DNA of 45,115 nt from a virus. Its lineage: Duplodnaviria; Caudoviricetes. The notes beneath the pieces were generated by a model. It was not told the origin of the DNA. It did no database searches and saw nothing but the letters and a program-made list of their open reading frames with translations. The stretch is from the IMG/VR virus record IMGVR_UViG_3300044475_000013, positions 1 through 45,115 of that record. One strand, written 5' to 3'. Both the position numbers and the translations under genes were made by a program. Numbering within the stretch: the first letter of the stretch is position 1; the number at the start of each line of letters is the position of its first letter. Shown one piece after another: positions 8,339-36,386 of this stretch.

Positions 8339-9355
8339 TTATACCGGTTCAGCCACGCTGATAACTACAGCGGTGTCGGGACGACGTTGAGCTACGTTGT
8401 ACATAGCATAGCAGTCCAGCACGTTGCAGAATTCACGTTGGTCATCCCAGATACGGGAGGTGAACGGTTTAGCTTCGATGGTCACCAGAGTCTTGGACTT
8501 GGAGAAGATTACCATCTTGCATTTCAGGTCATTCGCGGTCACGTTAAAGGCAGTGCCCAGAACATGATCGTTAGTACCAGCTACGTTCACAACCTTCGGG
8601 AACTCGGTAGTTTCAACAATCGGGATACCGTTCATACGAACGAAACGACGACCATTGTAATCACCGTCACCAGCACCACCGGCAACCTCAGTGTTCAGCA
8701 GCTTCGGGTGTTCCAGCAGAGCGGAGAACAGGTCTACGTCAACCAGAGTAACCATATCGGTCAGCGGAACCTTACGCTTGATCAGCAGATCAACACCCTT
8801 CTTATGGGCATTCTTCAGCGAAATAGCGTTAGCTTCCAGTTCTACCTGAGCAGTAGCAGCAGCCTTGAAGGTAGTGGCAATTTCCACACCATCTGAGAAT
8901 GCCGGCTTCAGGTGAGCAGGAGCAGTCCAGCTACGGGCCTTAATCAGTTGAATCAGGTGAGCACCATCGAACACTTCAGCGAACTGAGAGCCGTTGTTCA
9001 CACCAATTTCACGCAGCCAATCCGGGGCAGTCCAATCATCTTGGTAGTCGATCGGGTTACGGATATACAGCACGGTATCAACAGTGATTACCAGCTTCTC
9101 GTTAGTCACCTTCTGGCTGTCAAGAGACTGGCCGGACTTACGGGACTTAACAGAAGTGGTATTCATACGGTCGATACGGTAAGTATTCGAGCGATCAGCT
9201 ACAGAGCGTTGGGTACTCAGGGACAGGAAGATAGCCTGATATTGGAATCGGGTATCTACTTCACCTTGATAGATTTCAAGATGCTGGTCAGTATCCGAGT
9301 TCGCACCAGCCCAATGGACGCGGGTAGTGTTACCGTTGTAAATGCTATTAGCCAT
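8339..9355 (-). CDS. Major capsid protein
   Basis: 338 aa; T7/phiKMV-like HLEIYQGEVD, ITVDT..Y.R and RRPD motifs; AAGGA RBS. Confidence 0.95.
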   Translation of the reverse strand: MANSIYNGNTTRVHWAGANSDTDQHLEIYQGEVDTRFQYQAIFLSLSTQRSVADRSNTYRIDRMNTTSVKSRKSGQSLDSQKVTNEKLVITVDTVLYIRNPIDYQDDWTAPDWLREIGVNNGSQFAEVFDGAHLIQLIKARSWTAPAHLKPAFSDGVEIATTFKAAATAQVELEANAISLKNAHKKGVDLLIKRKVPLTDMVTLVDVDLFSALLEHPKLLNTEVAGGAGDGDYNGRRFVRMNGIPIVETTEFPKVVNVAGTNDHVLGTAFNVTANDLKCKMVIFSKSKTLVTIEAKPFTSRIWDDQREFCNVLDCYAMYNVAQRRPDTAVVISVAEPV

Positions 9356-9364
9356 TTATATTCC

Positions 9365-10168
9365 TTATTGCATACCGAGTCGACGGCCCATAGAACGTCG
9401 CTCGATTAGTTGTTGATACCGTTCACCGAACGGGCCAGATTCAAGGGAGCGGTTGCCAGCTTCTTGTTTGAGCTTTGCCATTTCAGCTTTGAACTCATTA
9501 CCACCAAGAGCGCCACCACCGCTAGATTTCCCTGCAAGACCTTGAATGGTTGGATTTGCATCCACAAACAGGCCCGCTTGTACAACAGTATCCAGCAACA
9601 GTTGTGTGCCTTCTTTATGCTGGCCACTATCCATCAGGAGAGTAACAGCAGTTTTCAAATGCTGAGGTGCATTCTCATTGAATACAGCAACAGCAGAATC
9701 CCAACGATCTTTACCACCAGCCATCTGATGAACTTCATTGATAGCAGAGGTTACAGAACTGAGCTTCTGTTCTACAGCAGCTTTCGCCAGTGCCAGAACT
9801 TGATCGGCTTTATCACCAAAGCGTTCACGGGCAAAGGCTTCATCAATCAGAGACAGATCGCCATGTGCAATAGCGTTCTTGGTCAGTCGATCAATGTCAG
9901 CATTGGTAGCCTTAGTAGCAGCCACCACAATACCAATTGCAGCATCCAGCGCAGCGTTACCAGTTTGCAGAGTTGCTAGATCACTAGGATTCTCTACGGG
10001 AGCTGGTGCCGTGGCAGGGGCTGGGGTAGGAACAGGAGCGACAGCAGGCTTAATATTAGCCGGGTCTACAACTGGAACAACTGGTGCCGGATTACCACCC
10101 GGCGGAACTGGAGGATTACCAGCAGGCGGTACGCCCGGCGGCAGATCAGGATTAGTATTTTCGGACAT
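9365..10168 (-). CDS. Capsid assembly scaffolding protein
   Basis: Pro-rich N-terminus, AGGKDRWD motif, basic C-terminus; between portal and capsid. Confidence 0.85.
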   Translation of the reverse strand: MSENTNPDLPPGVPPAGNPPVPPGGNPAPVVPVVDPANIKPAVAPVPTPAPATAPAPVENPSDLATLQTGNAALDAAIGIVVAATKATNADIDRLTKNAIAHGDLSLIDEAFARERFGDKADQVLALAKAAVEQKLSSVTSAINEVHQMAGGKDRWDSAVAVFNENAPQHLKTAVTLLMDSGQHKEGTQLLLDTVVQAGLFVDANPTIQGLAGKSSGGGALGGNEFKAEMAKLKQEAGNRSLESGPFGERYQQLIERRSMGRRLGMQ

Positions 10169-12593: not shown

Positions 12594-12613
12594 CCCACTG
12601 ATACCTGTGACTT
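12594..12613 (-). promoter_or_regulatory. Candidate phage RNAP late promoter AAGTCACAGGTATCAGTGGG
   Basis: 19/20 identical to 30751-30770; 16/17 core match to 35446-35462; directly upstream of the structural block. Confidence 0.75.
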
Positions 12614-12618
12614 TTAGT

Positions 12619-12663: not shown

Positions 12664-15075
12664 TCAGCAGAACATGAAGCGGGATTTTAGTACAACAGTA
12701 ACATCCAGATTGCCATCGAGTGGACGCTCTGGAACGGGTACACCTTCTGGGAAGAACTCGAGTAAACGCTGGGTAACGTCTTCTTGGTACATGTTCGCAA
12801 AGGTGCTACGCAATGAAATGTGCAATGAATCTACATCACACATATGAGTCCCGAAGGAATCATGAATTGGAACGATCTGACCAGCAAAATGATTGATAGT
12901 CATACACAGGTGCGCGCTATCCAGACTATGCACAAAGTTCGGACTGATACCATTGGCTGCGGTTTGCTTGTCGTATTCACCAGTACGCTTACGCATGGTA
13001 ATGGCGACAACACCCATACTACGAATGGCCATCTGTTTAACTTCATGAATCTCAGACCAGTTCAATACCGGAATACCTACCGGACTGAACCAGCGCATAG
13101 GGTCAGGATTTCTACGTGTCAGAGCTTGCAGATACTTCATACCCTCTGCCGCAGCAGGAACAATATCCTCAACAGCATGGCGTAGAGCTTTTGCAACGGG
13201 TACTGACATTTTGTGATAGGTGTAATCTGGAATCTTATCAGCACCAGACTTCATCAGATCATCAGTAACATATTGCAGTGTGCTCATAAGTGTACTGCCA
13301 TAGACATAAGTCATGACAGGTCGCTTTGCCATACTGCGGGGAATCGGACGTAGCTGCCAGAACTGCTGGAGCACTGTATCGCCTTCACAGAAGTCTTGAA
13401 TCAATGGTGCAGCTAATGCACTGGTTGCAGTGTAGATATCAGCTTTCTCGTCAGTTTCCGAATCAATTAGATTCGTGTACTTAGCACCAATGGGGTCACG
13501 GAACATAGCACTGAAGTGCTGTAGCCCCGAGCAAGTAGCATCTTGGGCACAAGGTACGTGGCAGATGTAATCTTCTGGGTATTCCATTTCGAGAGCTTCC
13601 TGTAGAGCTAAACCAGCAGCCAACAGCGTGAATGCTGTATCTTCCTCTGGCGGTTCTACATTCAACGGGTCATTGATGAAGTCACGAATGAAACCCCAAT
13701 TCTCTTCTGTCCATTTAGCTCGTAAGTGAAAGTCCTTCTTGTCATAACCACAGCAATTTGCTACGTGTACTTTTAACCAGAACAAACCACGCGCACCTAG
13801 AGCTTTACCTTCTGCGAACTCAAGGATGCCTTTTACCATGTCGTGAGACTGCGGGTTCAAAGCACTGCGGAAATACAAGCGACCTCTCCAGTCAAAGAAG
13901 CAGGGGAAGTAAATACGCTCTTCATTCAGATACTTTTTAGTTTCGTTGAGTTTCTGAATCAGACCGATCTTTTTACCATTGCGATGTTTCTCAGTGGTGT
14001 ACCAGTCTTTCATCTGGTCTTTCCACTCTTGAAAGATTTCTAGTTCTTTCGGTGTCGCTTTCTTCCTGATCCAGTCATCGTCAAATGGGAACGCTGGTTG
14101 TGGCGCAGAACCATGAGGCGGTAGACCAAGAATACCACGAGGATTTGCCAAGGCTTGAGCCGCAACACGTTGTACCTCTTTGTTGATTCTGTACGGAACA
14201 GACTGTGCTTTATTAGCTGCATCCTTTGCAGCACGGGCACAACCTTCGGACAGATTGTTAATTACCCAATTCCGTTGCTTCTTAGACATACCGCGAATGG
14301 TCATCATTGGAGAATGCACAGCTAGTTCATCCGTGATGTAACCACCTTGATAATGGTTTGTCCATGGACGCGGTTCTACTAGCATTGCAGGGAATCGAAT
14401 AATAGCATTAGCAGCTTCAACTGCTTTGCTCAAATGTTTCTCTAATGCTTCAGATGCTTTGATTGCTTTGTACGGATCACCACGACCTGACGGCAGATCA
14501 AACCACTCGAATAGACCTAGCTCGAAAAGACAGATCAGAAGTAAACGCGCTGTGCCAATCTTTTCATCAGAAGTCCACGGATCAATATCCAATCCAATAT
14601 CCTTAGCACCAGTCCGGTACTTTCGTTGGATATGCGAAATTGAACGTGACGCTTCCTTCTTAACTTGTGCTTCAACCTTCTCGACGTAATACGGATTGAT
14701 GTCAATGATCTTGTCGATCACAGACTCAGTTTCGATTGCGCGTCCGATGTCCCGAAGAACATCCTGCATTAGCATTACATCCGGTCTGGCACAAGCAGCG
14801 ATGATATGGCGAATACCGAGGATACATAGAATCTCAGGGCGTACCCGTCGAAGCATTGCACGATATTTACCACCCGGCCCTGCTGTCCTAGTTTCGAGCA
14901 TTTGCTGTACCAATGGCAAACCATCTTCAAACGCTCTGAGCAGCAGTCGTTTACCGACTCCTGTGTCGTCGGCTCGTCCCTGTTGGAACGCTTCCTGCAT
15001 TTGTTGAATACCACGGAGCATACCTTCATTTGTAGCGGCAAGCTCCATTTCTATTTGCCTGTTCAGCAATGTCAT
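12664..15075 (-). CDS. T7-family single-subunit RNA polymerase (canonical, phiKMV-type position)
   Basis: 803 aa; DWRGRLY, DATCSGLQH, RSMAKRPVMTYVYG, PNFVHSLD, IHDSFG, C-terminal FMFC. Confidence 0.98.
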   Translation of the reverse strand: MTLLNRQIEMELAATNEGMLRGIQQMQEAFQQGRADDTGVGKRLLLRAFEDGLPLVQQMLETRTAGPGGKYRAMLRRVRPEILCILGIRHIIAACARPDVMLMQDVLRDIGRAIETESVIDKIIDINPYYVEKVEAQVKKEASRSISHIQRKYRTGAKDIGLDIDPWTSDEKIGTARLLLICLFELGLFEWFDLPSGRGDPYKAIKASEALEKHLSKAVEAANAIIRFPAMLVEPRPWTNHYQGGYITDELAVHSPMMTIRGMSKKQRNWVINNLSEGCARAAKDAANKAQSVPYRINKEVQRVAAQALANPRGILGLPPHGSAPQPAFPFDDDWIRKKATPKELEIFQEWKDQMKDWYTTEKHRNGKKIGLIQKLNETKKYLNEERIYFPCFFDWRGRLYFRSALNPQSHDMVKGILEFAEGKALGARGLFWLKVHVANCCGYDKKDFHLRAKWTEENWGFIRDFINDPLNVEPPEEDTAFTLLAAGLALQEALEMEYPEDYICHVPCAQDATCSGLQHFSAMFRDPIGAKYTNLIDSETDEKADIYTATSALAAPLIQDFCEGDTVLQQFWQLRPIPRSMAKRPVMTYVYGSTLMSTLQYVTDDLMKSGADKIPDYTYHKMSVPVAKALRHAVEDIVPAAAEGMKYLQALTRRNPDPMRWFSPVGIPVLNWSEIHEVKQMAIRSMGVVAITMRKRTGEYDKQTAANGISPNFVHSLDSAHLCMTINHFAGQIVPIHDSFGTHMCDVDSLHISLRSTFANMYQEDVTQRLLEFFPEGVPVPERPLDGNLDVTVVLKSRFMFC

Positions 15076-15084
15076 CCTGTGTCC

Positions 15085-15387
15085 TTAAAAGGGAATAAAC
15101 TCCACGTCTTTCCACGGCGACACGTACACTTGATCCCCGATATAAATCAGCCGGAATGCAGTGTATTCTGCCAACCACTTTTCGTACTGTTCAGCTTTCG
15201 CTGTGTCCTTCTCAACTGACTGACCTTCTTTCAGACCAGCCCGTGCTCGGTACTTGATACTGTTACCCTTCAGGAAACCTTTGAATTCATCAGGTGTGAA
15301 CTCACGTAGCATCTTCAGGATAGGTTGATCATTACCAAGCTGATTGTAGTGCGGGGAAGTTTCCGCAGTGCCTTTGTCTACTGACAT
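15085..15387 (-). CDS. DUF3310-family protein (T7 gp1.7 nucleotide kinase-like)
   Basis: PHY...EFKGFLKGNSIKY..RAG.K...D..KA..Y pattern. Confidence 0.8.
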   Translation of the reverse strand: MSVDKGTAETSPHYNQLGNDQPILKMLREFTPDEFKGFLKGNSIKYRARAGLKEGQSVEKDTAKAEQYEKWLAEYTAFRLIYIGDQVYVSPWKDVEFIPF

Positions 15388-16022
15388 AATGCCTCCACAG
15401 AATGTGGGTAAACCTGTTCGAGGATAGGCTTCAGTTTCTCAGCGAACTCACGGGCAAAGGTTTGTGCATGCGAGTCGCTACGTTGTTGCCATACTCGATG
15501 AAAGAACAGGATACTACCTGTCCATACAATGTTTGTCATGGTATTCAGTGGGAGTACCAGACGTGCTTCTTCAGGTGCAATACCAACCTTGAGCATTTCA
15601 TTATAGAGTTCCAGACTCATTTGAGAATGTTCCTCCATAGCACTCAGATAACCGCGGCTGTAGTTATGCGTATCTGCACAACCTTGTTTAGCATTCTGTG
15701 GTCGGTTATGCAACTCCGTAGGCATCCAGAACTCAGGTTCGCTGTCGATGTAACGACGGGACTCTTCATTCCAGTTACCACCCACTTGATGCTTGACCAG
15801 TTGACGTGCCAGTGCCAGCGGAACCTTGCAACGAATAGTTACACAGGTATGCGCAAATGGACTCCAGTGTCCATGCTTGGCCAAGTAGTTCAACAGGCGT
15901 TGATCAGATTCAACATCAAATGTATAGACTTGTTTAGCAAAGCTAACACGGGCAGCGTTAACGACATTGATGTCACTACCCATGCTGTCTACCAATTCAA
16001 TTTCAATTGGTGCAATATTCAT
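15378..16022 (-). CDS. thyX: FAD-dependent thymidylate synthase
   Basis: VNAARVSF, HWSPFAH, RQLVKHQ..WNEESRRY, PEEAR.VLP, HAQ. Confidence 0.93.
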   Translation of the reverse strand: MNIAPIEIELVDSMGSDINVVNAARVSFAKQVYTFDVESDQRLLNYLAKHGHWSPFAHTCVTIRCKVPLALARQLVKHQVGGNWNEESRRYIDSEPEFWMPTELHNRPQNAKQGCADTHNYSRGYLSAMEEHSQMSLELYNEMLKVGIAPEEARLVLPLNTMTNIVWTGSILFFHRVWQQRSDSHAQTFAREFAEKLKPILEQVYPHSVEALCQ

Positions 16023-16972
16023 TAGTAAGTCCACTCACCAGTGAGATTGTTCTTGGCGTACTCAGTGCGACGACGTTCAAAGAAGTTACCATCTTCAACA
16101 CCACCCACAATCTGGTCAAACCAAGGGAACGGGTTCTTAGCAGTAATGTCATCTTCTGTGATACCAGCTTGACGCGCACGGCGCTGGGCTTGGAACATCA
16201 AGAATTCGATAACATCATGCAGCTCGATACCTTCGATTGCTTCACCATTGAAACAGTTCTTGGTGAACTGTACTACCAATGGCATCATCAGGGCTTCAAC
16301 TTCGTGGAAGAGTTTCAGTTTCTCTTTCGCAGATAACATGGCGAAAGCTTGGTCGCGCTTGATCAGTTCAGCAATACCTTGAACATGCAAATCTTCGTCG
16401 CGAATACTCCATGCCACAATAGTACAAGTACCATTGAACAGATTGAACCGTTGGAAATTCAGCAGCATTGCAAACAGACCGAACAGCATGGTACCTTCAC
16501 CTAGCAGAGAAGTTGCTACCATTCGACGGAAACGATCCTTGACGTTCTCACCCTTCCAGCGATTCATAGCTTCGTGCAGTTTCAGCAGAACAGGGTCTTG
16601 CATAAATGCACTAAAGATACCATCGCCTAGAGCCAGACTATCGGCCAGATAAGCATAACCAGTAACATGAATAGTTTCACGGTTGGTAAAGCCAACGAGC
16701 ATTTGTCGGATGTATAAGTCATCACGATAGTACCGGAGGTATTCGTCAATATAAGTGTTCTCAACTTCGATGTCAGCTTGAGTAAAGAACAGGGAAATGT
16801 TTTTGATGAAGTCACGCTGGGCTTGAGTTGCCTTTTCCTTCCAGTCTCGAATGTCATCGAGCATCGGAGTCTCTTCAGGCACCCAATGCAGGTGCTCATG
16901 CTTTTGCCAGAGTTCGTGCGCCCACACATTCGGGGACGCACGGAACACATGTTTAGTTTCAATGATGCTCAT
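16022..16972 (-). CDS. nrdB: Class I ribonucleotide reductase beta subunit
   Basis: FFTQAD, RETIH..Y, EG, RDE.LH di-iron motifs; NFFE.R.TEY tail. Confidence 0.95.
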   Translation of the reverse strand: MSIIETKHVFRASPNVWAHELWQKHEHLHWVPEETPMLDDIRDWKEKATQAQRDFIKNISLFFTQADIEVENTYIDEYLRYYRDDLYIRQMLVGFTNRETIHVTGYAYLADSLALGDGIFSAFMQDPVLLKLHEAMNRWKGENVKDRFRRMVATSLLGEGTMLFGLFAMLLNFQRFNLFNGTCTIVAWSIRDEDLHVQGIAELIKRDQAFAMLSAKEKLKLFHEVEALMMPLVVQFTKNCFNGEAIEGIELHDVIEFLMFQAQRRARQAGITEDDITAKNPFPWFDQIVGGVEDGNFFERRRTEYAKNNLTGEWTY

Positions 16973-17023
16973 GCACCACCAATACCTTCAGCCAAACCTG
17001 CACCTTCGATCAGTTGATCTGGA

Positions 17024-18772
17024 TCAGTTTGCACAGGCAAGACATTCATCAGTTGATACATCTTGTACGATTGCATGGACTTTGGTTCCTGTTGTTGCTT
17101 TATGGGATGATAGACCTTTGCTGTAATACAAAGACTTCAAACCCTTGTCAAAGGCTTCGCGGTGAACGCGGCTGTAGACACTCCGAGCTGTTCCCGGCGG
17201 AAAGTACAGATTGACAGACTGAGCTTGGCAGATGTTCGGTTGACGGTCAGCGGCATGCTGGACAATCCAACGTTGATCAAGTTCGTAGGCAGTCTTAAAG
17301 ACTTCTTTCTGATAGTCTGTAAGATATTCCAAATGCTGTACTGAACCTGCATTGATGATAATGCTTGTCCACTCAGATTCGGTGTCACGCCCCAGACTTT
17401 GAAGCAGGGCCTGTAGGTACTTGTTCTTCTCAACGAAAGTTCCGCTTGCAGACTTCCGAATGAATCCGTTTGCAGTGTACGGCTCGATACCGGGTGAAGC
17501 GTCAGCAAAGATGCTGGTACTGGCGTTCGGAGCAATTGCAAGCATGTGCGTGAAAGCAACCCACTTTTCCGGGTTTTCAGGGTAAGCCGCACGGCTAGCA
17601 CCAGAAGGCCCAACCACAGGCACAAGCTCTTTATTGGCAACAGCAGCAGCTTCAGCAATCGCTTTGAAGATTCGCTTGTTAGCTGAGACAGCCATTGCAG
17701 ACGCGAACGGAATGTTCTTTTGCTGTAGGTAGCTATGAAATCCGAGAGCACCAAGTCCGACGTCCCTGTAGAACTCTGCGTTCTTTCTCGCACTTTCAGC
17801 TCCCTCCAGACCAGAGGTAACGAAAGAATCAAGAACAAGCCAAAGATACAATAGGCAATCAGTAATGAATTGCTGAATACCGAAGGCACGGATGTCATCC
17901 CACTTTTCGATATTGAGACTTCCAAGACAGCAAACACCAGTAGCAGGTTCGCCGTTAGGGAGTTCCGTTGCCACAGTAATTTCAGTGCAAAGATTAGACG
18001 TGTAAACGGGTACATTCAAATCCTTCAAGATCTGAGGCCGTTGTGCCATCATGTTCGATTCGTCAATGATGTACGGCTCACCAGTGAAACTTCTGGTTTC
18101 CAGAATTAGTTCCCACAGTCGTCGAGCTTTGATCGTCTCTTTGATTTCCTTAGTATGCGGATCATACAAATGGAAGTCTTGATCAGTGGATACAGCATCC
18201 CGGAACTCTTGGTTGATGACTACACCATGATGCAGGTTCAAGTTCTTGCGATCAAGGTCACCACCAGTGGGCTTGCGCATTTCAATGAACTCTACAATCT
18301 CTGGGTGCCATACAGGCAAGAAGGAAGCATAGGAAGCACGGCGGGAACTACCTTGTGCAAAGGCTGTTACGAGACGATTAATAACAGACTGGAAGGGGAG
18401 CATCCCGTTGCTTCGACTACCTTTTGAAGTAGCACTACCAACAGTCCGCAGTTTGCCCCAATAAGAGCCAACGCCACCACCATTACTAGCAAGCCAGCCA
18501 GTCTCGGTATAGTGCCCAAGAATTCCCCGACGCGAGTCATGAACAGAACTGAGGAAACAAGCGATAGGATTACCGCGACCAGTATCAGCATTTGCCAGAA
18601 CAGGTGTGCTTCCCACAAACCACTGATTGTAAACATAGCGAAGCATCCGTTCTTTGTGTTCACCCGTGCAGTACGCAGTGATACTACGGGTGAAGATATC
18701 AGTAAGGGTGACATCCTGCGGGGCCATGTAGCGGTCCCGCAGAGTCTCCTGTGCAAATTTATTGAGTTGCAT
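17024..18772 (-). CDS. nrdA: Class I ribonucleotide reductase alpha subunit (short, no ATP cone apparent)
   Basis: TPVLAN, ACF, GGGVG, SNLCTEI, APNASTS, SLYY and C-terminal CLAC. Confidence 0.95.
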   Translation of the reverse strand: MQLNKFAQETLRDRYMAPQDVTLTDIFTRSITAYCTGEHKERMLRYVYNQWFVGSTPVLANADTGRGNPIACFLSSVHDSRRGILGHYTETGWLASNGGGVGSYWGKLRTVGSATSKGSRSNGMLPFQSVINRLVTAFAQGSSRRASYASFLPVWHPEIVEFIEMRKPTGGDLDRKNLNLHHGVVINQEFRDAVSTDQDFHLYDPHTKEIKETIKARRLWELILETRSFTGEPYIIDESNMMAQRPQILKDLNVPVYTSNLCTEITVATELPNGEPATGVCCLGSLNIEKWDDIRAFGIQQFITDCLLYLWLVLDSFVTSGLEGAESARKNAEFYRDVGLGALGFHSYLQQKNIPFASAMAVSANKRIFKAIAEAAAVANKELVPVVGPSGASRAAYPENPEKWVAFTHMLAIAPNASTSIFADASPGIEPYTANGFIRKSASGTFVEKNKYLQALLQSLGRDTESEWTSIIINAGSVQHLEYLTDYQKEVFKTAYELDQRWIVQHAADRQPNICQAQSVNLYFPPGTARSVYSRVHREAFDKGLKSLYYSKGLSSHKATTGTKVHAIVQDVSTDECLACAN

Positions 18773-20115: not shown

Positions 20116-21092
20116 TGGAATTGGAGTTCTTTAAGTGAAGTGCAAGGCTGTTCAATTCTTTGCCACTCAGCGTATTCATCTTCAGACATACGATATTTTG
20201 AATTGAAACATCTGAGTAGAAACTCACGATTGTCCTCAGTGAGCCCAAGCGACCAGATGTATGACGCAGCAGTGTCGCCAGCGCAACGCGTGAGCCATAG
20301 GCATTCTGCTTCGGCCAGTATGTTCTGACCAATACTTCGATACTGAGCAATGACAGCATTAGCGACAGCATCCTCAGTTGCAAGATGATGTAGGTACTTA
20401 AACGCAGCCGTAGTGCCCACGAGTTTACCGGATGAATCATGTCGGAGTCCCTTCACGTTGTCCGCAGTGTCACCCATTAACAGTTGTGCCCAAAAGAATT
20501 TAGTACCACGTCCAATGATCTTGGGATTGCTGTTACCGGTGTACATACCGATGTGGCCGAATCGACCATTGATTGTCTCTACTCGTCCATTGTATTTGTT
20601 GTAATGGAAACCCGGAGCAATCTGCAAATCCTTATCATCAGAATGCAATACAGCATTCGACACAGTGTACATATCCTGAACCATAGCATCATCAGCTTCT
20701 ACAGCGAACTGTGGAAAAATCTGGATGTCACTATGTTCATCAAAATGGGTTGCAAGTGCAGACCGCAACACCTCCAGCAGTGGAGGCTTTTGCTTATTGA
20801 ATCGGTTTGCTTGATAAGGCTTCTCTGCAAGGAGCATACCACGATTGTTCTTCAAGCAACCTTTAGGTGTAATGTGTACACGAGCGGACTCTGCTTTACA
20901 CAGGAACATTTTCTCGTACACATTACTCTTGAATTTTCTGAAAGCGGTGTCGATCTTTTTGCTATCGAAGGTCGCGGCGTAACACGGCCCGTCACCGTCT
21001 AGAATTAAAACCCTCCCCGGCTCAGATGAATCTTGGAATTGAGAGGGGAGGGTATTTGTATCTACGCCAAAGCGTTCTAGCACTATAGGCAT
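20064..21092 (-). CDS. 5'-3' exonuclease (gp6-like)
   Basis: LDGD, Y.ANR, EADD, DKDL, MGD.ADN..G motifs. Confidence 0.92.
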   Translation of the reverse strand: MPIVLERFGVDTNTLPSQFQDSSEPGRVLILDGDGPCYAATFDSKKIDTAFRKFKSNVYEKMFLCKAESARVHITPKGCLKNNRGMLLAEKPYQANRFNKQKPPLLEVLRSALATHFDEHSDIQIFPQFAVEADDAMVQDMYTVSNAVLHSDDKDLQIAPGFHYNKYNGRVETINGRFGHIGMYTGNSNPKIIGRGTKFFWAQLLMGDTADNVKGLRHDSSGKLVGTTAAFKYLHHLATEDAVANAVIAQYRSIGQNILAEAECLWLTRCAGDTAASYIWSLGLTEDNREFLLRCFNSKYRMSEDEYAEWQRIEQPCTSLKELQFQWEKFRKEIGCNIQHLP

Positions 21093-25273: not shown

Positions 25274-25307
25274 TTCAATAACGCGGAAGCCTCATAGAGA
25301 CTTCCGC
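25274..25307. promoter_or_regulatory. Intergenic hairpin with a 15-bp motif shared with 33027-33041
   Basis: TTCAATAACGCGGAA leading into an 11-bp stem. Confidence 0.6.
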
Positions 25308-25314
25308 ATCTTGG

Positions 25315-30442: not shown

Positions 30443-30686
30443 AACGTTTCAATTTACGCTGCTGCTTTGCGAACGCTCTGAGGTTCGCTTTGTTGTGCGG
30501 GACACGTACCATGTTGCCCGGTCTGGTGTACTGCTCCGTGTGGCAATCCATTTCATGCGCACCACGCATCAGATTTTTAATATTGGGGTACGGTGCAATG
30601 GCAAGTGAACCAATCTTCAGAAAGTGGTACTTGCTAGGCAACGTATCACCCGGCATAACATATTGATTACTACGTACTCGGAACAT
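30441..30686 (-). CDS. Hypothetical basic early protein
   Basis: 81 aa; overlaps the upstream gene. Confidence 0.6.
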   Translation of the reverse strand: MFRVRSNQYVMPGDTLPSKYHFLKIGSLAIAPYPNIKNLMRGAHEMDCHTEQYTRPGNMVRVPHNKANLRAFAKQQRKLKR

Positions 30687-31083
30687 AGTCTTCCAATCGC
30701 ATTAAGTAACGATGATCTTTGAACATCGTGTAGTTTTCGGGAAGTTGACGCCCACTGATACGTGTGACTTCAACAATTTGGATGGTTTCTTGGCTATCAT
30801 ACAGAGGTGATTCACCAAGGTGGTAAATCTCTGCAATCATAGCTTTTGGCCAGTACAGCATGAAGGATTTCTGGTTGAAATGCTTTGCGAGTGTACGCAG
30901 TGCTGCGTTGCTCGTTGATACCTCTTCCAGATGCCATGTCAACTCACGTACACCATTATAAGAACCCACAACTGTTTGCAGGTTCTTACCATAGTGTTGC
31001 AAGAGCTTACCGAGTTCACAGTGTCGGCGGACAAGCGCAAGCTCGTCCATCCCTTCGGAACTAGCAGAAATCAGGAGGTGCAT
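30670..31083 (-). CDS. S-adenosylmethionine lyase-like protein (T3 gp0.3 family)
   Basis: LISA...RH..L, G.Y...E.T and LA....Q....Y align by eye with T3 SAMase; early-region position. Confidence 0.65.
   Translation of the reverse strand: MHLLISASSEGMDELALVRRHCELGKLLQHYGKNLQTVVGSYNGVRELTWHLEEVSTSNAALRTLAKHFNQKSFMLYWPKAMIAEIYHLGESPLYDSQETIQIVEVTRISGRQLPENYTMFKDHRYLMRLEDYVPST
30751..30770 (-). promoter_or_regulatory. Candidate phage RNAP middle promoter AAGTCACACGTATCAGTGGG
   Basis: 19/20 identical to 12594-12613; upstream of the replication genes. Confidence 0.75.
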
Positions 31084-31399
31084 TTTCTTGTACCTGCATC
31101 AGACGTGAAGCGTAGCTGCGAATGATCTTCGCTTGCTCAGGTGTAATGGGAACATCCGTGTTCATGATTTCTTCGTACACAGTACGAATCTTGTGCATTG
31201 GATGACGCTGCCGCAGATGGTTGATGTCACGATGCAGTGCATCGAACTGTTGACGGTGCCAATCAAGGCGGCGGTTCAGGTCACGGATGGTTTGAGTTTG
31301 TGAAGGTGCAACACGCGTACCCGCGTGATACGCAACAGCACAAGCAATGATCATGCAGATGATGATCAGGATGTCGAAAGTGTAGGGCATGATTAGCAC
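31061..31399 (-). CDS. Hypothetical membrane protein
   Basis: N-terminal hydrophobic helix followed by a coiled coil. Confidence 0.65.
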   Translation of the reverse strand: MLIMPYTFDILIIICMIIACAVAYHAGTRVAPSQTQTIRDLNRRLDWHRQQFDALHRDINHLRQRHPMHKIRTVYEEIMNTDVPITPEQAKIIRSYASRLMQVQENAPPDFC

Positions 31400-31968
31400 C
31401 AGTAGGTTACAGGGTCAGTAAGGACAATTTCACGAACTGGACAACCATCCGCAGATAGACGATGGCGCAGCATGAAGTTGCCAGAATGTATATCATTTGC
31501 CTCAAAGCCAAACTCAGTATGGAAGTTAGCATGAAGTTTGTCCTTGATGTGTTCTGCTTCGGAGTATGCTAGGGTGTGTTTCTCCAACCGTTCCATGATG
31601 GCATACGGTATACCAAGGCAGGTTCCCATTTCGTAAACGATGGGCATCCAGTCGCAGCGGAAGTTACGCTCAATGCACTTCTCCAGATACTTAGTGCTAC
31701 CATCAGCACCCTTCGGGAAGATTTTGATAACCTTCGTGACATCAAAAGGGTGCGGAACAACGAACGAGAAGTAACCAGCACCCAGCGGTTTAACACGCAG
31801 CTTATTCGGCTTTGCATACCACAGGGTAGATTCCGTATCCAGAGTACGCATGTTCTCTGGTGTAGGCTCGAAGCCCCAGCGCATTTGAGAACGACTGTGC
31901 TCAGTCTGGCAAGCACGGAAAGCAAGGATAGAATCCTGAATGAAGGAACGCAGATTCTGAAAGGACAT
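31393..31968 (-). CDS. Ser/Thr protein kinase, T7 gp0.7-like catalytic domain only
   Basis: LGAGYFS, VIK, MERL, DIHSGNFM, TDPV; GGAG RBS. Confidence 0.85.
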   Translation of the reverse strand: MSFQNLRSFIQDSILAFRACQTEHSRSQMRWGFEPTPENMRTLDTESTLWYAKPNKLRVKPLGAGYFSFVVPHPFDVTKVIKIFPKGADGSTKYLEKCIERNFRCDWMPIVYEMGTCLGIPYAIMERLEKHTLAYSEAEHIKDKLHANFHTEFGFEANDIHSGNFMLRHRLSADGCPVREIVLTDPVTYWC

Positions 31969-31982
31969 TTCAATTCTCCGTT

Positions 31983-32011
31983 GCCCTCATTCTGCTTGAT
32001 CAGTTGAGGGC
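31983..32011. promoter_or_regulatory. Intergenic hairpin (possible RNA processing site)
   Basis: GCCCTCA/TGAGGGC stem with inner CTG/CAG. Confidence 0.4.
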
Positions 32012-32027
32012 GGTTTGGGTTTGGACG

Positions 32028-32264
32028 TTACACCACGAGGCTGTTGCGGTTACGGTCGAGGAAGCCATTACGCTTCATCTGGGCCAGAGCTTTACGTTGC
32101 TGGCTGCTGATTGCGAAGCCCTCGGCTTCTTCACGAGGAGCGCGAGCGGGAACCTTCTTTGCACGCAACTCATAACCTTCGGGCAGAGCTGCGCGGCTGT
32201 TGTTGATGCCAGTTACTTCTGCGTGTACTTCAGATTGGGACAAACGTGCCATGGGATTCTCCAT
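32028..32264 (-). CDS. Hypothetical early protein
   Basis: 78 aa; the second ATG follows GGAG. Confidence 0.65.
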   Translation of the reverse strand: MENPMARLSQSEVHAEVTGINNSRAALPEGYELRAKKVPARAPREEAEGFAISSQQRKALAQMKRNGFLDRNRNSLVV

Positions 32265-32289
32265 TGTTGGCGTTAGGAATAAACTTGTG

Positions 32290-32313
32290 GCTGCACTCGG
32301 TTGTGAGTGCAGC
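32290..32313. promoter_or_regulatory. Intergenic hairpin (possible RNA processing site)
   Basis: Perfect 9-bp stem GCTGCACTC/GAGTGCAGC. Confidence 0.45.
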
Positions 32314-32320
32314 AGCGAGC

Positions 32321-32524
32321 TTACTCGTCAGGATACAAAGTAAGGATGTGCTTCGCCAGACGGCGAGCGTTGAACTCAGAGAGGCAAACAGCAGCCACTT
32401 TATCATCTTCAGGTTCACTGATGGTGATGTACAGTGGTGTGCCCGGTTGAACCTCACGCTCTACCTGCAAGCAATCTTGACGATTAGCTGTGCAGTTGAA
32501 TGTTATGAGGTCAGAAGTACTCAT
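32321..32524 (-). CDS. Hypothetical early protein
   Basis: 67 aa; overlaps the upstream gene. Confidence 0.6.
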   Translation of the reverse strand: MSTSDLITFNCTANRQDCLQVEREVQPGTPLYITISEPEDDKVAAVCLSEFNARRLAKHILTLYPDE

Positions 32525-32696
32525 GGGTTTTTACGCTCCATGCACCTTCGAGTTGGCCTTTCAGTGCAGTGACCTTACCACGCACTTCATTGATGTTGCG
32601 ACCACGGAATTTCACAACGCAAAGCGTATTGCGCTTTACCTTGTTGGTTTTCGGGTCAACGGAATCGTTGTAGATGATGCAGGTAGCTTTTGCCAT
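32511..32696 (-). CDS. Hypothetical early protein
   Basis: 61 aa; AAGGA RBS. Confidence 0.6.
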   Translation of the reverse strand: MAKATCIIYNDSVDPKTNKVKRNTLCVVKFRGRNINEVRGKVTALKGQLEGAWSVKTHEYF

Positions 32697-32729
32697 AGGT
32701 AAAATATCCTTTGGTTGAATGAAAAGAGT

Positions 32730-33065
32730 GCCAGCTAGCCGACGCGTTCGATACGGTAGAGGACTAGCTGGCTAAGATAGGAGATAACCAGAAAAGAAGG
32801 CGGGCCTTGCACCCGCATGTCTTAAAGGCTGTGGTTGACGCGAACGTAGGTTCGCCAACTCTCGACCTAAGAGTCACCTTACTAGCAATGAAGTCTAGCC
32901 TAGGATTTTGTTAAAGAGAACAGACGCCCTGCTTGGGCCGAATGAAGTCCTGTCTGCCTCAACGAAGATAAGCAGCTTTGACACCTAGACAGGTGCATAC
33001 CCGGATTTACGGTTTATGCTTCTTTCTTCAATAACGCGGAACTCTCGAAGAGAGTTTCGTTGAGG
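32730..33065. ncRNA. Candidate structured non-coding RNA region
   Basis: No ORF of 60 aa or more in the track. Nested stems include CCTCAACGAA/TTCGTTGAGG, GCATA/TATGC, GCGAAC/GTTCGC and GCCAGCTAG/CTAGCTGGC. Confidence 0.35.
32791..32816 (-). terminator. Intrinsic terminator-like hairpin
   Basis: GCGGG-7nt-CCCGC-CUUCUUUU. Confidence 0.55.
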
Positions 33066-33240
33066 TTACAAGTAGAGGACACGTTGTGTAGCGACGGTTT
33101 TCGGGGAGTCCAGAGGGCGCAGCCCTTTGGTCAAAATGTTTTTAGGTGTACCGCTAGGTACACATTGTCTGAGCGCCGAAGGCGCGAAGCGAAAATTTTA
33201 GGATATGCTAATACAATGAATCACTGATATACCAGACGTT

Positions 33241-33265
33241 AAAAAGGGCCTGCAAGTGCAGACCC
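33241..33265 (-). terminator. Terminator after the mini-RNAP gene
   Basis: GGGUCUGC-ACUU-GCAGGCCC-UUUUU, 8 nt after the stop codon. Confidence 0.85.
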
Positions 33266-33273
33266 GTTGTGAA

Positions 33274-34980
33274 TTATTCTTGATCAAGGAAATGCGGCAT
33301 ACGGCGCGGGTTAATCCACAAAATATCTTTGTGCGGTAGGCCGATTACCTCGCGCATTCCGTCCAGCTCTTCTGATGCCACGATGCCGCAAAATACCGAC
33401 CATGCAATGCTGAGAAATTCCGGGACATCCGCTGCACTGTCTAGAGTGAAAGAATCATGCACCCCTACAATCGTTTTACCAGTGCGCTTGTGATATTCGG
33501 CTTGCACCATCGCCATGAAGGCAGCATCAAGGGACTGGATGAAGTTAGCAGCGGCGGCTACGATTGCAGAGCGGTTGTCCTCTGCATCGCGGTCAACCTT
33601 CACAATACCTGTACGCTCTTTGAACGTGACAGCAGTGGGAATGTACTCGTTAGAACTCTCGCCAGTTTTCCATTGCTCAGATGCTGTTACCCAGTAGTTC
33701 TGTTTCACGGTGAAACCAGACGGTGTTACCCATTCAAGCTGTTTACCTTCTTCTGCCAGATTTCCGGCTGCATTACTGGCATGTTTCTTGACTACATTCA
33801 ATCCGTCATACGTGGTCAGAACGTCCACGATAGCGGCGGCTGCGTCAACGTCTTGGCCTTCTTCTTGTGCCATCTGCAAAGCACGGTCGCGGCTGGTTTC
33901 ATCGCCGCTGCCGTAGGCTTTAGGCATCAAGTACGACTTAGCTACAGCACGTTCAAATGAATCTTTTGCAGGGCAGGCATTACCGCTTGCGAGTGCATAA
34001 ACATTACCGTAGAAGTCTTTCACGTTATCAGTGAAGTTCAAGAGGTTGCAGGCATCAGCCAATGCACGGTCGCCAGTTACTACGCTAATGAATTGTGCAA
34101 AGGATGCAGTAGAATCATAAGTGACTTGATCGTCATGACCGAGAATATAACCGGCTACGCCACCGGCCTGTGGATTCAGCATACCGGACACGTAATAAAG
34201 ACGGCCACGAAAGTCTGCTTTCACCTGATAGTGCCAGCCGTTAGGCTTCTGGCTGTAGGCAATGCGGGCGCTTGCAAGTGCCTGACGTTGTGCTTCTAGC
34301 TTTGCAATGTCTGCATCAGACACGGCCATAGTCCAGCAGTTTTTACGGTTCAGGAAATAACCCTTTGCCAGCCATTCACTACATTCTTTAGCGCGGCGGA
34401 TGTTCACAGTGAAACGGTGAGCAGACATTGCCATTGCACCATCGTGATGCACAGTGCCAGCCTTGATGAAACGCGGGAGGATGCACGGCTCGTCATGCAG
34501 CATATGCATAATAGTCTGCTTGAGCATACCGCTATTAAGTACATAACGAGCGGGCAAAGTGTTCTCACCCAGTTGTTCTTCTGGTTGATACAGCATCCAG
34601 CCATCAGCGACCCAAGCTTGGATAAATCGCTTTGCAATGTTGCGGTATGCTCTCCAATCCTCTGCGTCGTCACACAGGGAAGCGCCATCATCCAGCATGA
34701 TAACCGTTGCAGTCTCTTTAATTACAAATTGAGCTGACTTCTCAGTGTACAATCCGGCGGACAAAGTATCTGCAAATACTGACATAAATACGTGTAATTG
34801 TTCTTTGTCCAGCATTTGGAAATCAGCGCCATTGAAATAAGCGGCGACAGAGCCTGTGAGGCGCACGGTTTCCACGATACGCGACAGAGCCATACCATCG
34901 TAAATGGCATCAACAGGCAGGCCATTATCATTTTGGTTCAGGTCACGTTGGGAGCGGGAGCTAGAATTCATGGAGTTCAT
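33274..34980 (-). CDS. Second, reduced T7-family single-subunit RNA polymerase
   Basis: 568 aa; D256FRGRLY, motif A D289STASFAQ, motif B R344-x3-K-x7-Y356G, WVTPSG, ANFIQSLD, motif C VHD509SF; AAGGA RBS. Confidence 0.92.
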   Translation of the reverse strand: MNSMNSSSRSQRDLNQNDNGLPVDAIYDGMALSRIVETVRLTGSVAAYFNGADFQMLDKEQLHVFMSVFADTLSAGLYTEKSAQFVIKETATVIMLDDGASLCDDAEDWRAYRNIAKRFIQAWVADGWMLYQPEEQLGENTLPARYVLNSGMLKQTIMHMLHDEPCILPRFIKAGTVHHDGAMAMSAHRFTVNIRRAKECSEWLAKGYFLNRKNCWTMAVSDADIAKLEAQRQALASARIAYSQKPNGWHYQVKADFRGRLYYVSGMLNPQAGGVAGYILGHDDQVTYDSTASFAQFISVVTGDRALADACNLLNFTDNVKDFYGNVYALASGNACPAKDSFERAVAKSYLMPKAYGSGDETSRDRALQMAQEEGQDVDAAAAIVDVLTTYDGLNVVKKHASNAAGNLAEEGKQLEWVTPSGFTVKQNYWVTASEQWKTGESSNEYIPTAVTFKERTGIVKVDRDAEDNRSAIVAAAANFIQSLDAAFMAMVQAEYHKRTGKTIVGVHDSFTLDSAADVPEFLSIAWSVFCGIVASEELDGMREVIGLPHKDILWINPRRMPHFLDQE

Positions 34981-35217
34981 TTGTGTATCCTTCTTTCTGG
35001 TTAATCATCACTTCGGACGAGGTATCGGTCGCGGTACAATCCGTGATAGACATGCATTAGGCTGCGAGTGCAACACCACAGCCCTTTAGGGTTAGAATTG
35101 TTTTGCGCGGGTTATGCAAAAGAATTCTAAGTGTTGCAGTCGTTGCCGCATGGCTATAGGATTTGTACCAATAGCGACCAGATAGCTCAGTCCGAAGATT
35201 AAGCAGAAGGAATACAA
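34981..35217. repeat. Long imperfect inverted repeat (rod-like hairpin) abutting the mini-RNAP start codon
   Basis: About ten collinear complementary blocks around a 9-nt loop at 35107-35115. Confidence 0.9.
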
Positions 35218-35445
35218 CTTAGAACGCAATGAAGCTTTTAGGTAATGCGCAGCATTACACACGAAGCGCAGCGTAGTTCATCTATGCTTTTAACAGAGGA
35301 ACATCTATAGCAATAATGCTGAAAGCTCGCAGAGCTTTTAGCTCTATCCTACCTAGCATAATAGATGAAATACAAGGATAAACTGTTGTTAATTATCGCT
35401 ATGAAATAGCGATGATCTTGATAGAAATTGAGGGGTCGAAATCAG

Positions 35446-35465
35446 AAGTCACACGTATCAGTAGA
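35446..35465 (+). promoter_or_regulatory. Candidate phage RNAP promoter in reverse orientation, AAGTCACACGTATCAGTAGA
   Basis: GAAGTCACACGTATCAGT is identical over 18 bp to the minus-strand copy at 30754-30771. Confidence 0.7.
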
Positions 35466-35519
35466 ATAGTAGAATGGAAACCAAGCGAACGAGGACAGCC
35501 GAAGGCTCCGCAGAGAGCG

Positions 35520-36075
35520 CCATAGTTACACAGTGCTATCCATGATTGATAACAGTGATAATCAGTATGTATCACAGAGAGAACAATAGTATGTAATCTA
35601 GTGTACAAAAGAGTGATAACAATAGTGTACAACAGAGAATACAACAGAGAGAACACAGATAGTAAACACAGAGTACAACAGTGAATGACACAGGATAACA
35701 ACAGGGTGACTAATAGTAACTACATAATCACAGGATAGTAATCACAGGGTGAGGTGTGGTGGGGCTAGAGAGCAAAAGAAGTATGCACCCACGAGCACAC
35801 GGATAGACCGATAGCCACAGCACAACAGGTGAACACAGGAGTAACCACAGAGGTAAACACAGATGAACACAGATGAACACAGGGTGACCGTCAGTAACCA
35901 GAGTAACGAGGGTGCCATGGGGGAAAACTCTGGTTGAGGAGGGAGAGACACCCTCGCATAAATATAATAAAATTGGTAGCAACAATACACTCGAACTCTG
36001 ACACACTAGTACAACAGATCACCACAGATAAACACAGCTTACTATCTCAGTAACTATAGTAACTATCTCAGTACC
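35520..36075. repeat. A/C-rich degenerate short-repeat region; probable genome terminus / terminal-repeat zone
   Basis: Many ACACAG/ACAACAG units, three tandem AACACAG(ATG) from 35856, ACTATCTCAGTA twice; lies between the last and first genes. Confidence 0.65.
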
Positions 36076-36095
36076 ATTAAACAAAAATAGTATCC

Positions 36096-36386
36096 CTACG
36101 TATTCGTAGGGATACCGAAGTTGTAATCAGCTAAGGCAAACGCTAGAGGTAATGCTACACAATCAAAGCCACCATAGTTCAGAACATTGTTATTAACCTT
36201 CTCTACACTATCTGTACTATAGAGGTTCAACAGAGCAGTCTTACATTCAGCACTAGTTCTACCAATAGCTGAAGCTACTGAGTTCAGGGTAACCATATCC
36301 TGAGCAACAGGATTCGCAGAGTCAACAACCTTCTGAAGCTCTGCATTGTCAGCTCTCCACCAATAGCTACTGGTTGTAACGCTCAC
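36096..36386 (-). CDS. Hypothetical protein (last late gene)
   Basis: 96 aa; GTG start overlaps the endolysin stop. Confidence 0.65.
   Translation of the reverse strand: MSVTTSSYWWRADNAELQKVVDSANPVAQDMVTLNSVASAIGRTSAECKTALLNLYSTDSVEKVNNNVLNYGGFDCVALPLAFALADYNFGIPTNT

What the first reader, a model, noticed from the sequence alone, without database searches (positions are those of the whole stretch)
32720..35520. Candidate new system: mini T7-type polymerase cassette wrapped in structured DNA at the genome entry end
Seen: a second RNAP gene is the first gene after the probable terminus and has its own terminator. Both ~550-nt flanks are non-coding and full of hairpins, and they reuse the same modules (TTTTAGGT-hairpin-TACACA at ~33140 and ~35236; CAATAAY plus an 11-bp stem at 33029 and 35311; GCGAAGC/GCGCAGC units). 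Known: phiKMV-type phages have one RNAP and use host RNAP for early genes; N4 vRNAP reads template-strand hairpin promoters; mitochondrial RNAP primes on an ssDNA hairpin. Inference: the enzyme and structures form one unit for hairpin-directed early transcription, DNA internalisation or replication priming. Novelty cannot be established without a search.
Basis: partly seen in the sequence, partly recalled or inferred. Interest (0 to 1): 0.92.

Follow-up and report, generated by a model that had tools for sequence, protein, structure and literature searches.

The report
Miniature second phage polymerase with hairpins
An uncultured group of T7-related phages carries, besides its normal RNA polymerase, a much smaller second polymerase surrounded by conserved DNA hairpins that it likely uses as start signals for the early genes, and one fixed active-site change raises the untested possibility that it makes DNA instead of RNA.

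Summary
The 568-aa gene (33274-34980, minus strand) has the T7 RNA polymerase fold with the catalytic residues intact. It belongs to a discrete, unannotated family of 480-590 aa. The family sits in the same left-end slot of phiKMV-type phages, and 7 of 7 near-complete records also encode the normal polymerase.

Flanking GNA-triloop hairpins lie on the template strand: 23 against 0 on the coding strand (stems of 7+ bp, 11 loci). They show compensatory changes and are absent from 12 single-polymerase control regions.

Relatives usually have a host promoter before the gene, a terminator after it, and no consensus host promoter downstream. So the best reading (0.5) is an early/middle RNA polymerase using N4-like hairpin promoters.

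New here: T7's Gly542, which admits the ribose 2'-OH, is Phe in 37 of 37 members. De novo DNA synthesis at the hairpins is therefore a serious rival (0.3). Also missed: a 230-nt covarying rod over the ribosome-binding site, and a separate late promoter.

The scan earlier noted other small second polymerases with hairpins on other DNA, none sequence-similar. Ten literature searches found no description of this family.

The parts
33274..34980 (-). Miniature T7-fold polymerase, 568 aa; catalytic D289, R344, K348, M352, Y356, H508, D509; invariant F294 at the T7 G542 site and Q482 at the H784 site
33241..33265 (-). Intrinsic terminator right after the gene; a terminator-like stem with a U run is seen at the same place in L001-L004, G005 and G007
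33173..33199 (+). Template-strand GNA hairpin (5 bp) plus a mini-hairpin beside an A/T tract; a similar tract-then-hairpin pattern follows the terminator in both subfamilies (seen by eye)
33140..33163 (+).
33104..33130 (+). GNA hairpin inside a motif conserved in L001, L003 and L004 but also found in unrelated mobile elements
33029..33059 (+).
34984..35216 (.). About 230-nt rod-like stem covering the ribosome-binding site of the polymerase gene; folds better in the template-strand sense; covaries
35236..35262 (+).
35311..35342 (+).
35395..35413 (+). 8-bp GNA hairpin; homologues in L001, L002, L005, L006 and G003 differ by compensated pairs and in the middle loop base
35444..35461 (+). Leftward copy of the candidate promoter of the canonical polymerase; a leftward copy is also found in G002, G003, L001, L005 and L006
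35930..35975 (-). Conserved terminus motif; left end near 35944 by homology with Ep4
25276..25310 (-). Third copy of module 2, in the gap before the DNA polymerase genes; 14-bp stem, but wobbles favour the coding strand and the loop is not GNA
12664..15075 (-). Canonical phiKMV-type RNA polymerase (803 aa, Gly at the 542 site)
12598..12615 (-). Candidate late promoter just after the canonical polymerase gene; another rightward copy at 30755-30772

Best explanation
The 568-aa protein is a stripped-down T7-family polymerase that likely serves as the phage's early/middle RNA polymerase, and it is predicted to start at the GNA-loop DNA hairpins on the template strand beside its own gene. Inferred sequence of events: host RNA polymerase transcribes only the small gene and stops at its terminator. 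The small enzyme then starts at extruded hairpins, transcribes the early and replication genes up to the canonical polymerase gene, and so would also pull the genome in. The canonical polymerase then uses its own separate promoter for the late genes. As in T7, the hairpin cluster after the gene may double as a replication priming site. Shown: fold, catalytic residues, synteny, two polymerases per genome, strand-biased covarying hairpins, promoter and terminator layout. Inferred: all activity, start sites and timing.
For: Fold: AF2 pLDDT 87; Z 25.4, rmsd 4.6 A over 379 residues to T7 RNAP, against Z 19.6 for Klenow. The promoter-binding helices, intercalating hairpin (127-148) and specificity loop (428-462) are kept. 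Catalytic residues are invariant in 25 of 25. Both polymerases are present in 7 of 7 records that are at least 82% complete; the 2 shorter fragments and 1 unsearched locus say nothing. Hairpins: of 27 perfect triloop hairpins with stems of 7+ bp in the flanks of 11 loci, 23 are template-strand GNA and 0 coding-strand GNA; the other 360 kb holds 2 and 5. In the terminase-to-+7 kb window, 9 of 10 dual loci have one, against 0 of 12 single-polymerase controls; T7 has one in its terminal repeat, and N4 has two. The N4 review describes the same loop and closing pair as needed for extrusion (PMC4496689, section 5 read). Four compensated pair changes occur in a ~90% relative. Host promoters: 8 of 11 dual loci have a sigma70-like site within 400 nt upstream of the gene. 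Downstream, 7 loci give 6 weak hits in 21 kb, near background, none with a consensus -35. 10 of 12 single-polymerase controls have consensus -35 early promoters. The canonical polymerase has a different candidate promoter.
Against: T7 Gly542 is Phe in 37 of 37 members, but Gly in 136 of 147 other T7-like proteins. A review says this glycine avoids a clash with the 2'-OH and is bulkier in DNA polymerases (PMC11617373, passages). Hairpin sequences differ between lineages, and no fixed loop-to-start spacing like N4's was found. G004 has only 5-bp stems. The window and G009 have no sigma70-like site upstream, and control Ep4 also lacks one (matrices recalled). The third module copy favours the coding strand and lacks the GNA loop, and no such copy was found before the DNA polymerase gene in G002, G003 or G004. 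One flank motif is generic: 9 of 10 viral hits had no family gene nearby. The 11 loci are related (about five lineages), so the pooled p-values are inflated.
Confidence: 0.5

Rival explanations
1. The enzyme is an RNA-polymerase-derived, site-specific DNA polymerase. It would recognise the hairpins with its promoter-binding parts and start DNA chains de novo with dNTPs, priming replication or terminal-repeat copying at the left end.
For: Invariant Phe five residues after the motif A aspartate in both subfamilies, down to 23% identity. This is the position of T7 G542 (PMC11617373, passages) and, as recalled, of the steric gates of Pol I, family B polymerases and reverse transcriptases. G542V reduces transcription and alters 2'-OH contacts (PMC8155940, passages). 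Subdomain H and the N-terminal part linked to RNA exit are missing. The flanks resemble single-strand origin regions of mobile elements. A leftward late promoter points away from the cluster in 6 genomes and would supercoil it late in infection (effect inferred).
Against: It leaves the early operon behind a strong terminator without a recognisable promoter. Y356 (T7 Y639) is kept. Gln at the H784 site also occurs in 9 other T7-like proteins and in an N4-RNAPII-like ORF that keeps the glycine. Side-chain orientation could not be inspected in the model. An earlier scan note (unchecked) reports natural sugar-pocket changes in real virion RNA polymerases.
Confidence: 0.3
2. The enzyme makes only short RNA primers or acts as a DNA-entry motor at the hairpins, while host polymerase reads through the terminator to express the early genes.
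For: Loss of RNA-displacement parts and a short thumb. The hairpin cluster lies directly after the gene, the position of T7's first phage promoters. The hairpins occur almost only at the left end.
Against: The terminator is strong and conserved. Priming alone does not explain the loss of consensus host promoters across the clade.
Confidence: 0.12
3. Enzyme and hairpins are merely linked: the hairpins are host-protein sites or RNA-processing signals inherited in the same clade, and the enzyme uses ordinary double-stranded promoters.
For: The dual-polymerase phages form one weakly supported clade (55/83), so co-occurrence may be a single event. One motif is generic. In L005 the rod precedes a short ORF, not the polymerase. 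The 3' arm of module 2 looks like a 17-bp T7-style promoter.
Against: Different hairpin sequences converge on GNA loops on one strand, on both sides of the gene, across deep divergence. GNA triloops are stabilising in DNA, not RNA (N4 review for DNA; RNA part recalled).
Confidence: 0.08

Closest known systems
T7 RNA polymerase and canonical Autographiviridae RNAPs (PF00940)
   Same: Fold, catalytic residues, promoter-binding helices, intercalating hairpin, specificity loop; early left-end gene position
   Different: 315 aa shorter. It lacks about the first 80-100 residues, subdomain H, the palm insertion (about 450-527) and a fingers insertion (about 590-623), and has G542F and H784Q. It forms a separate clade, not derived from the genome's own polymerase, and coexists with a canonical RNAP.
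Coliphage N4 virion RNAP and its hairpin promoters
   Same: Template-strand stems with 3-nt GNA loops in the first-entering end
   Different: A small ordinary gene, not a 3,500-aa virion protein; longer and more varied stems; no fixed four-A spacer; structurally closer to T7 (Z 23.9) than to mini-vRNAP (Z 16.4).
N4 RNAPII (gp15/gp16, 673 aa)
   Same: Minimal T7-family enzyme with truncated N-terminus and thumb, serving middle genes (PMC4496689, passages)
   Different: Single chain of 480-590 aa; RNAPII keeps the glycine; no conserved gp2-like neighbour gene seen.
phiKMV/KP34/Fri1-type phages
   Same: Gene order, late position of the canonical RNAP, promoter copy after it
   Different: These have one RNAP and consensus host promoters for early genes, and lack the long GNA hairpins.
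piPolB primer-independent DNA polymerases (PMC5695915, passages)
   Same: The activity proposed in the rival reading: de novo DNA synthesis with an aromatic steric gate
   Different: Family B fold and weak start-site preference; this enzyme has a T7/family A fold with promoter-recognition parts.

Membership tests
T7-type single-subunit RNAP | Right-hand T7 fold | tested here: met
T7-type single-subunit RNAP | Catalytic Asp pair, motif B Arg/Lys/Met/Tyr, DxxGR motif | tested here: met
   invariant in 25 of 25; one of 17 in the wider alignment has Asn at motif C
T7-type single-subunit RNAP | Promoter-binding domain, intercalating hairpin, specificity loop | tested here: met
   the N-terminal register is less certain, and the AT-rich loop is not clearly aligned
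T7-type single-subunit RNAP | Gly at position 542 admitting the 2'-OH | tested here: not met
   Phe in 37 of 37; filed as T7-superfamily polymerase, not as a canonical RNAP
T7-type single-subunit RNAP | DNA-dependent RNA synthesis | not testable with these tools
   needs an enzyme assay
N4 vRNAP system | Template-strand hairpins with GNA loop at the entry end | tested here: met
N4 vRNAP system | Giant virion-packaged polymerase | tested here: not met
   568 aa; family 479-590 aa; longer forms were not searched for separately
N4 vRNAP system | Loop centred at -11 with a four-A spacer and +1 C | tested here: inconclusive
   not seen in the listed hairpins; start sites unknown
N4 vRNAP system | Gyrase and SSB dependence | not testable with these tools
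   experiment needed
N4 RNAPII | Two-subunit enzyme | tested here: not met
   single ORF in the window and fetched loci
N4 RNAPII | gp2-like cofactor gene | tested here: inconclusive
   neighbouring small ORFs of relatives do not match the window's; no dedicated search
phiKMV-type autographivirus | Gene order with RNAP between replication and structural genes | tested here: met
phiKMV-type autographivirus | One RNAP; early genes from consensus host promoters | tested here: not met
Primer-independent DNA polymerase (piPolB) | Family B fold | tested here: not met
   best matches are T7-type RNAPs, then family A polymerases
Primer-independent DNA polymerase (piPolB) | Aromatic steric gate in motif A | tested here: met
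   by alignment position only
Known RNA families | Rfam match in the flanks | tested here: inconclusive
   one chance-level hit, E 1.9, in 32000-36200

The most novel reading that the evidence does not exclude
A natural promoter-directed DNA polymerase: a T7-type RNA polymerase lineage that acquired an aromatic steric gate and now starts DNA chains de novo at template-strand hairpins at the phage's entry end.
Probability: 0.28. Interest if true: 0.96.

Novelty: new variant of a known kind. Interest (0 to 1): 0.8.

Why it matters
Autographiviruses are defined by one polymerase. This clade has two, with an apparent host-to-small-to-late cascade and N4-like DNA hairpins. At 480-570 aa the family is smaller than N4 RNAPII (673 aa, called one of the smallest in PMC4496689) and the 646-aa ST32 enzyme (PMC6266442, passages), so it defines a minimal T7 architecture. 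The invariant Phe at the sugar gate makes a long-standing question directly testable with one purified protein: how RNA and DNA specificity switch within the Pol I/T7 fold. Either result is useful: a compact hairpin-started RNA polymerase, or a sequence-specific primer-free DNA polymerase.

Tried and rejected
Pseudogene or fragment: rejected, since it is full-length in 25 homologues with invariant catalytic residues.

Duplication of the genome's own RNAP: not supported; the two are separate clades (FastTree, long branches).

Assembly artefact: one contig spans 30000-40000 in two runs that may be the source, and an independent study holds a ~90% relative with the same layout.

Cultured relatives: none; the best hits among 50,697 phage records cover 26% or less. 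Bacterial genomes: none.

RNA tetraloop reading of the hairpins: rejected, because the perfect register is the triloop and all four middle bases occur.

Hairpin module as the canonical polymerase's promoter: rejected, because a different motif follows that gene.

Retron-like unit (rod plus polymerase): considered. There is no reverse transcriptase, and the rod is limited to the window's subclade and L005.

A 15-nt pattern scan for more rods gave 104 loci, of which only L005's record matched. A hairpin pattern scan gave 13 loci: 4 known dual-polymerase records and 9 without the gene nearby.

No RNA holder listed. Literature searches without a description of this family or of two single-subunit RNAPs in an autographivirus: (listings only, except the papers cited). 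PMC13029058, PMC4310352, PMC6834552 and PMC11880802 (passages) had nothing on it. No supplements were opened; RNAP-mining tables there could hold members.

Left open: the residue at the 542 site in N4 virion RNAP, and counts of the 7-nt units and of the A/T tract.
Full report
Setting. The window is a circular 45-kb podophage contig (127-nt end overlap) with all genes on the minus strand. It has phiKMV/Fri1-type order: primase, helicase, ligase, DNA polymerase, nucleotide genes, an 803-aa RNA polymerase, then structural, packaging and lysis genes. The canonical polymerase is 48% identical to Acinetobacter Fri1-like enzymes, and the terminase is 61% identical to Aeromonas phage PS. The left end is near 35944 by homology with the start of Ep4's annotated terminal repeat. 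The host is unknown; the listed runs are sediment and sludge metagenomes.

The protein. The ORF at 33274-34980 hits Pfam RNA_pol and has 24 homologues of 539-590 aa at 41-86% identity. A profile search of 1.84 billion representatives found 17 proteins of 479-588 aa with E below 1e-60, one 379-aa fragment at 1e-24, and then ordinary polymerases. The 22 members tested form one clade apart from canonical phiKMV-type enzymes. The AlphaFold model (pLDDT 87) matches T7 RNAP best (Z 25.4, rmsd 4.6 A, 379 residues); mini-vRNAP and N4 RNAPII score Z 16.4. Profile alignment to T7 shows that the promoter-binding helices, intercalating hairpin and specificity loop are kept. The N-terminal 80-100 residues, subdomain H, part of the thumb, the palm insertion and a fingers insertion are lost. 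Catalytic residues are invariant in 25 of 25.

Context in relatives. Ten related loci were fetched (L001-L006 and L015-L018; L007 duplicates L004; L019 is an unrelated N4-like hit). Where the contig reaches, the gene lies between the terminase/lysis genes and the early genes. All 7 records that are at least 82% complete also encode the canonical polymerase; 2 fragments gave no match and L006 was not searchable. On a terminase tree the 10 dual loci fall on one side of a weak branch (55/83; 58% of bootstrap trees), so a single origin is allowed but not shown.

The hairpins. In the window, 6 C-GNA-G hairpins with stems of 4+ bp lie on the template strand in 1,193 nt of flank, against 0.1 expected, with none on the coding strand. 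Across 11 loci, 23 of 27 perfect triloop hairpins with stems of 7+ bp in the flanks are template-strand GNA and none is coding-strand GNA; G004 has only 5-bp stems. These loci represent about five lineages, so the counts are not independent. Twelve single-polymerase regions matched by position have none of 7+ bp, T7 has one in its terminal repeat, and 9 of 10 dual loci have at least one. The first 7 kb of five more cultured controls have none, and N4 has two. A ~90% relative shows compensated changes at 35244/35256, 35093/35129, 35095/35127 and 35104/35118, and no listed change in 35311-35339, which there also matches the downstream position (7 differences were not displayed). The N4 review (PMC4496689; section 5 part 1 and passages) states that this loop type and closing pair are needed for extrusion of N4's template-strand promoter hairpins.

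(1) A rod of about 230 nt (34984-35216) covers the ribosome-binding site. It has z -9.8 as coding RNA and -13.8 as template DNA, and is about 16 kcal/mol more stable in the template sense in both the window and L005. It is limited to this subclade, and in L005 it precedes a short ORF. It may be a translational switch or a single-strand structure. (2) A candidate promoter of the canonical polymerase lies after that gene (12598-12615), at 30755-30772, and facing left at 35444-35461; the leftward copy recurs in five relatives. (3) A third copy of module 2 lies before the DNA polymerase genes, with features favouring the coding strand. (4) The motif at 33104-33130 is shared with unrelated mobile elements, so not every hairpin is specific to this enzyme.

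Who transcribes the early genes. With approximate sigma70 matrices taken from recall, 8 of 11 dual loci have a site within 400 nt upstream of the small gene; the window, G009 and L005 do not. A terminator-like stem with a U run follows the gene in the loci inspected. In the 3 kb after it, 7 loci give 6 weak hits (background 5 in 30 kb), none with a consensus -35. In contrast, 10 of 12 single-polymerase controls have consensus -35 early promoters; VP93 is weak and Ep4 has none. The kinase-like and SAM-lyase-like early genes and the canonical polymerase gene thus lack an evident host promoter. This is the main argument that the small enzyme transcribes them.

The sugar gate. Motif A aligns without ambiguity to T7 D537-Q544, and T7 G542 corresponds to F294. 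Phe is found in 37 of 37 members (invariant in alignments 14 and 35; the automatic picker mis-chose two). Among 147 other T7-like proteins, 136 have Gly, 6 Ala, 2 Val, 1 Ser, 1 Thr and 1 Phe; that one is a 267-aa fragment grouping with N4 gp16; 3 rows had no motif. A review states that G542 lessens the clash with the 2'-OH and is bulkier in DNA polymerases (PMC11617373, passages), and G542V lowers transcription to 10-30% (PMC8155940, passages). That the same position is the steric gate of reverse transcriptases and family B enzymes is recalled; PMC5695915 (passages) mentions a tyrosine steric gate in PolB. H784 is Gln in 36 of 36 members, but this also occurs outside the family, so it is not diagnostic. 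Strict conservation of Phe suggests an active-site role, but its orientation could not be inspected.

Verdict. The cassette is real and conserved. Transcription from template-strand hairpins explains the promoter layout and is ranked first (0.5). De novo DNA synthesis explains the gate and is ranked second (0.3). Priming or DNA entry only is third (0.12), and mere linkage last (0.08). It works like N4's hairpin system in its signals and like T7 gene 1 in its position, but fails membership of N4 vRNAP, N4 RNAPII and, at one defining residue, canonical T7 RNAPs. Ten literature searches found no description. Earlier scan notes describe small second polymerases with hairpins in other phages, but the look-ups by sequence and by place found nothing similar, and a word search found no note of this glycine-to-phenylalanine change. 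Those notes are unchecked and are not counted as support.

Noticed in passing
L016 9219-9740 (G005); also L015 3528-3765 and G008 20459-20555: Array of an 11-nt repeat downstream of the subfamily B polymerase: 12, 5 and 3 copies, mostly 40-44 nt apart. Iteron-like or tandem promoters; it contains the heptamer recalled from T7's short terminal repeats.
   Followed up: partly
window 32783-32800: Near-perfect antisense match to the polymerase's ribosome-binding region. It pairs locally with the next gene's ribosome-binding site in the fold, and the stretch is replaced in the close relative.
   Followed up: partly
L005 9487-9985: The rod and the first codons of the window-type N-terminus precede a short ORF, and a polymerase of another subgroup starts about 230 nt later. 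This suggests a gene swap behind a retained regulatory element.
   Followed up: partly
protein P0131 (267 aa): N4-gp16-like fragment with the same Phe and Gln pair, possibly an independent origin of the altered pocket.
   Followed up: no
window 15378-18772: Complete class I ribonucleotide reductase plus thymidylate synthase in a 45-kb phiKMV-type genome; Aeromonas phage PS has no annotated reductase.
   Followed up: no
window 30670-31968: T7 0.7-like kinase and SAM-lyase-like genes lie after, not before, the first polymerase gene.
   Followed up: partly
L068-L077: A 27-31-nt hairpin motif recurs in intergenic regions of unrelated mobile elements, once upstream of a relaxase-like gene (label recalled); no Rfam match was found for the window's copy.
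   Followed up: no
L018 about 9300-9440 (G009 34020-34155): A separate long stem with matching ends upstream of the subfamily B polymerase gene.
   Followed up: no
window 35520-35900: Strongly strand-skewed, low-complexity short-repeat region next to the terminus.
   Followed up: no
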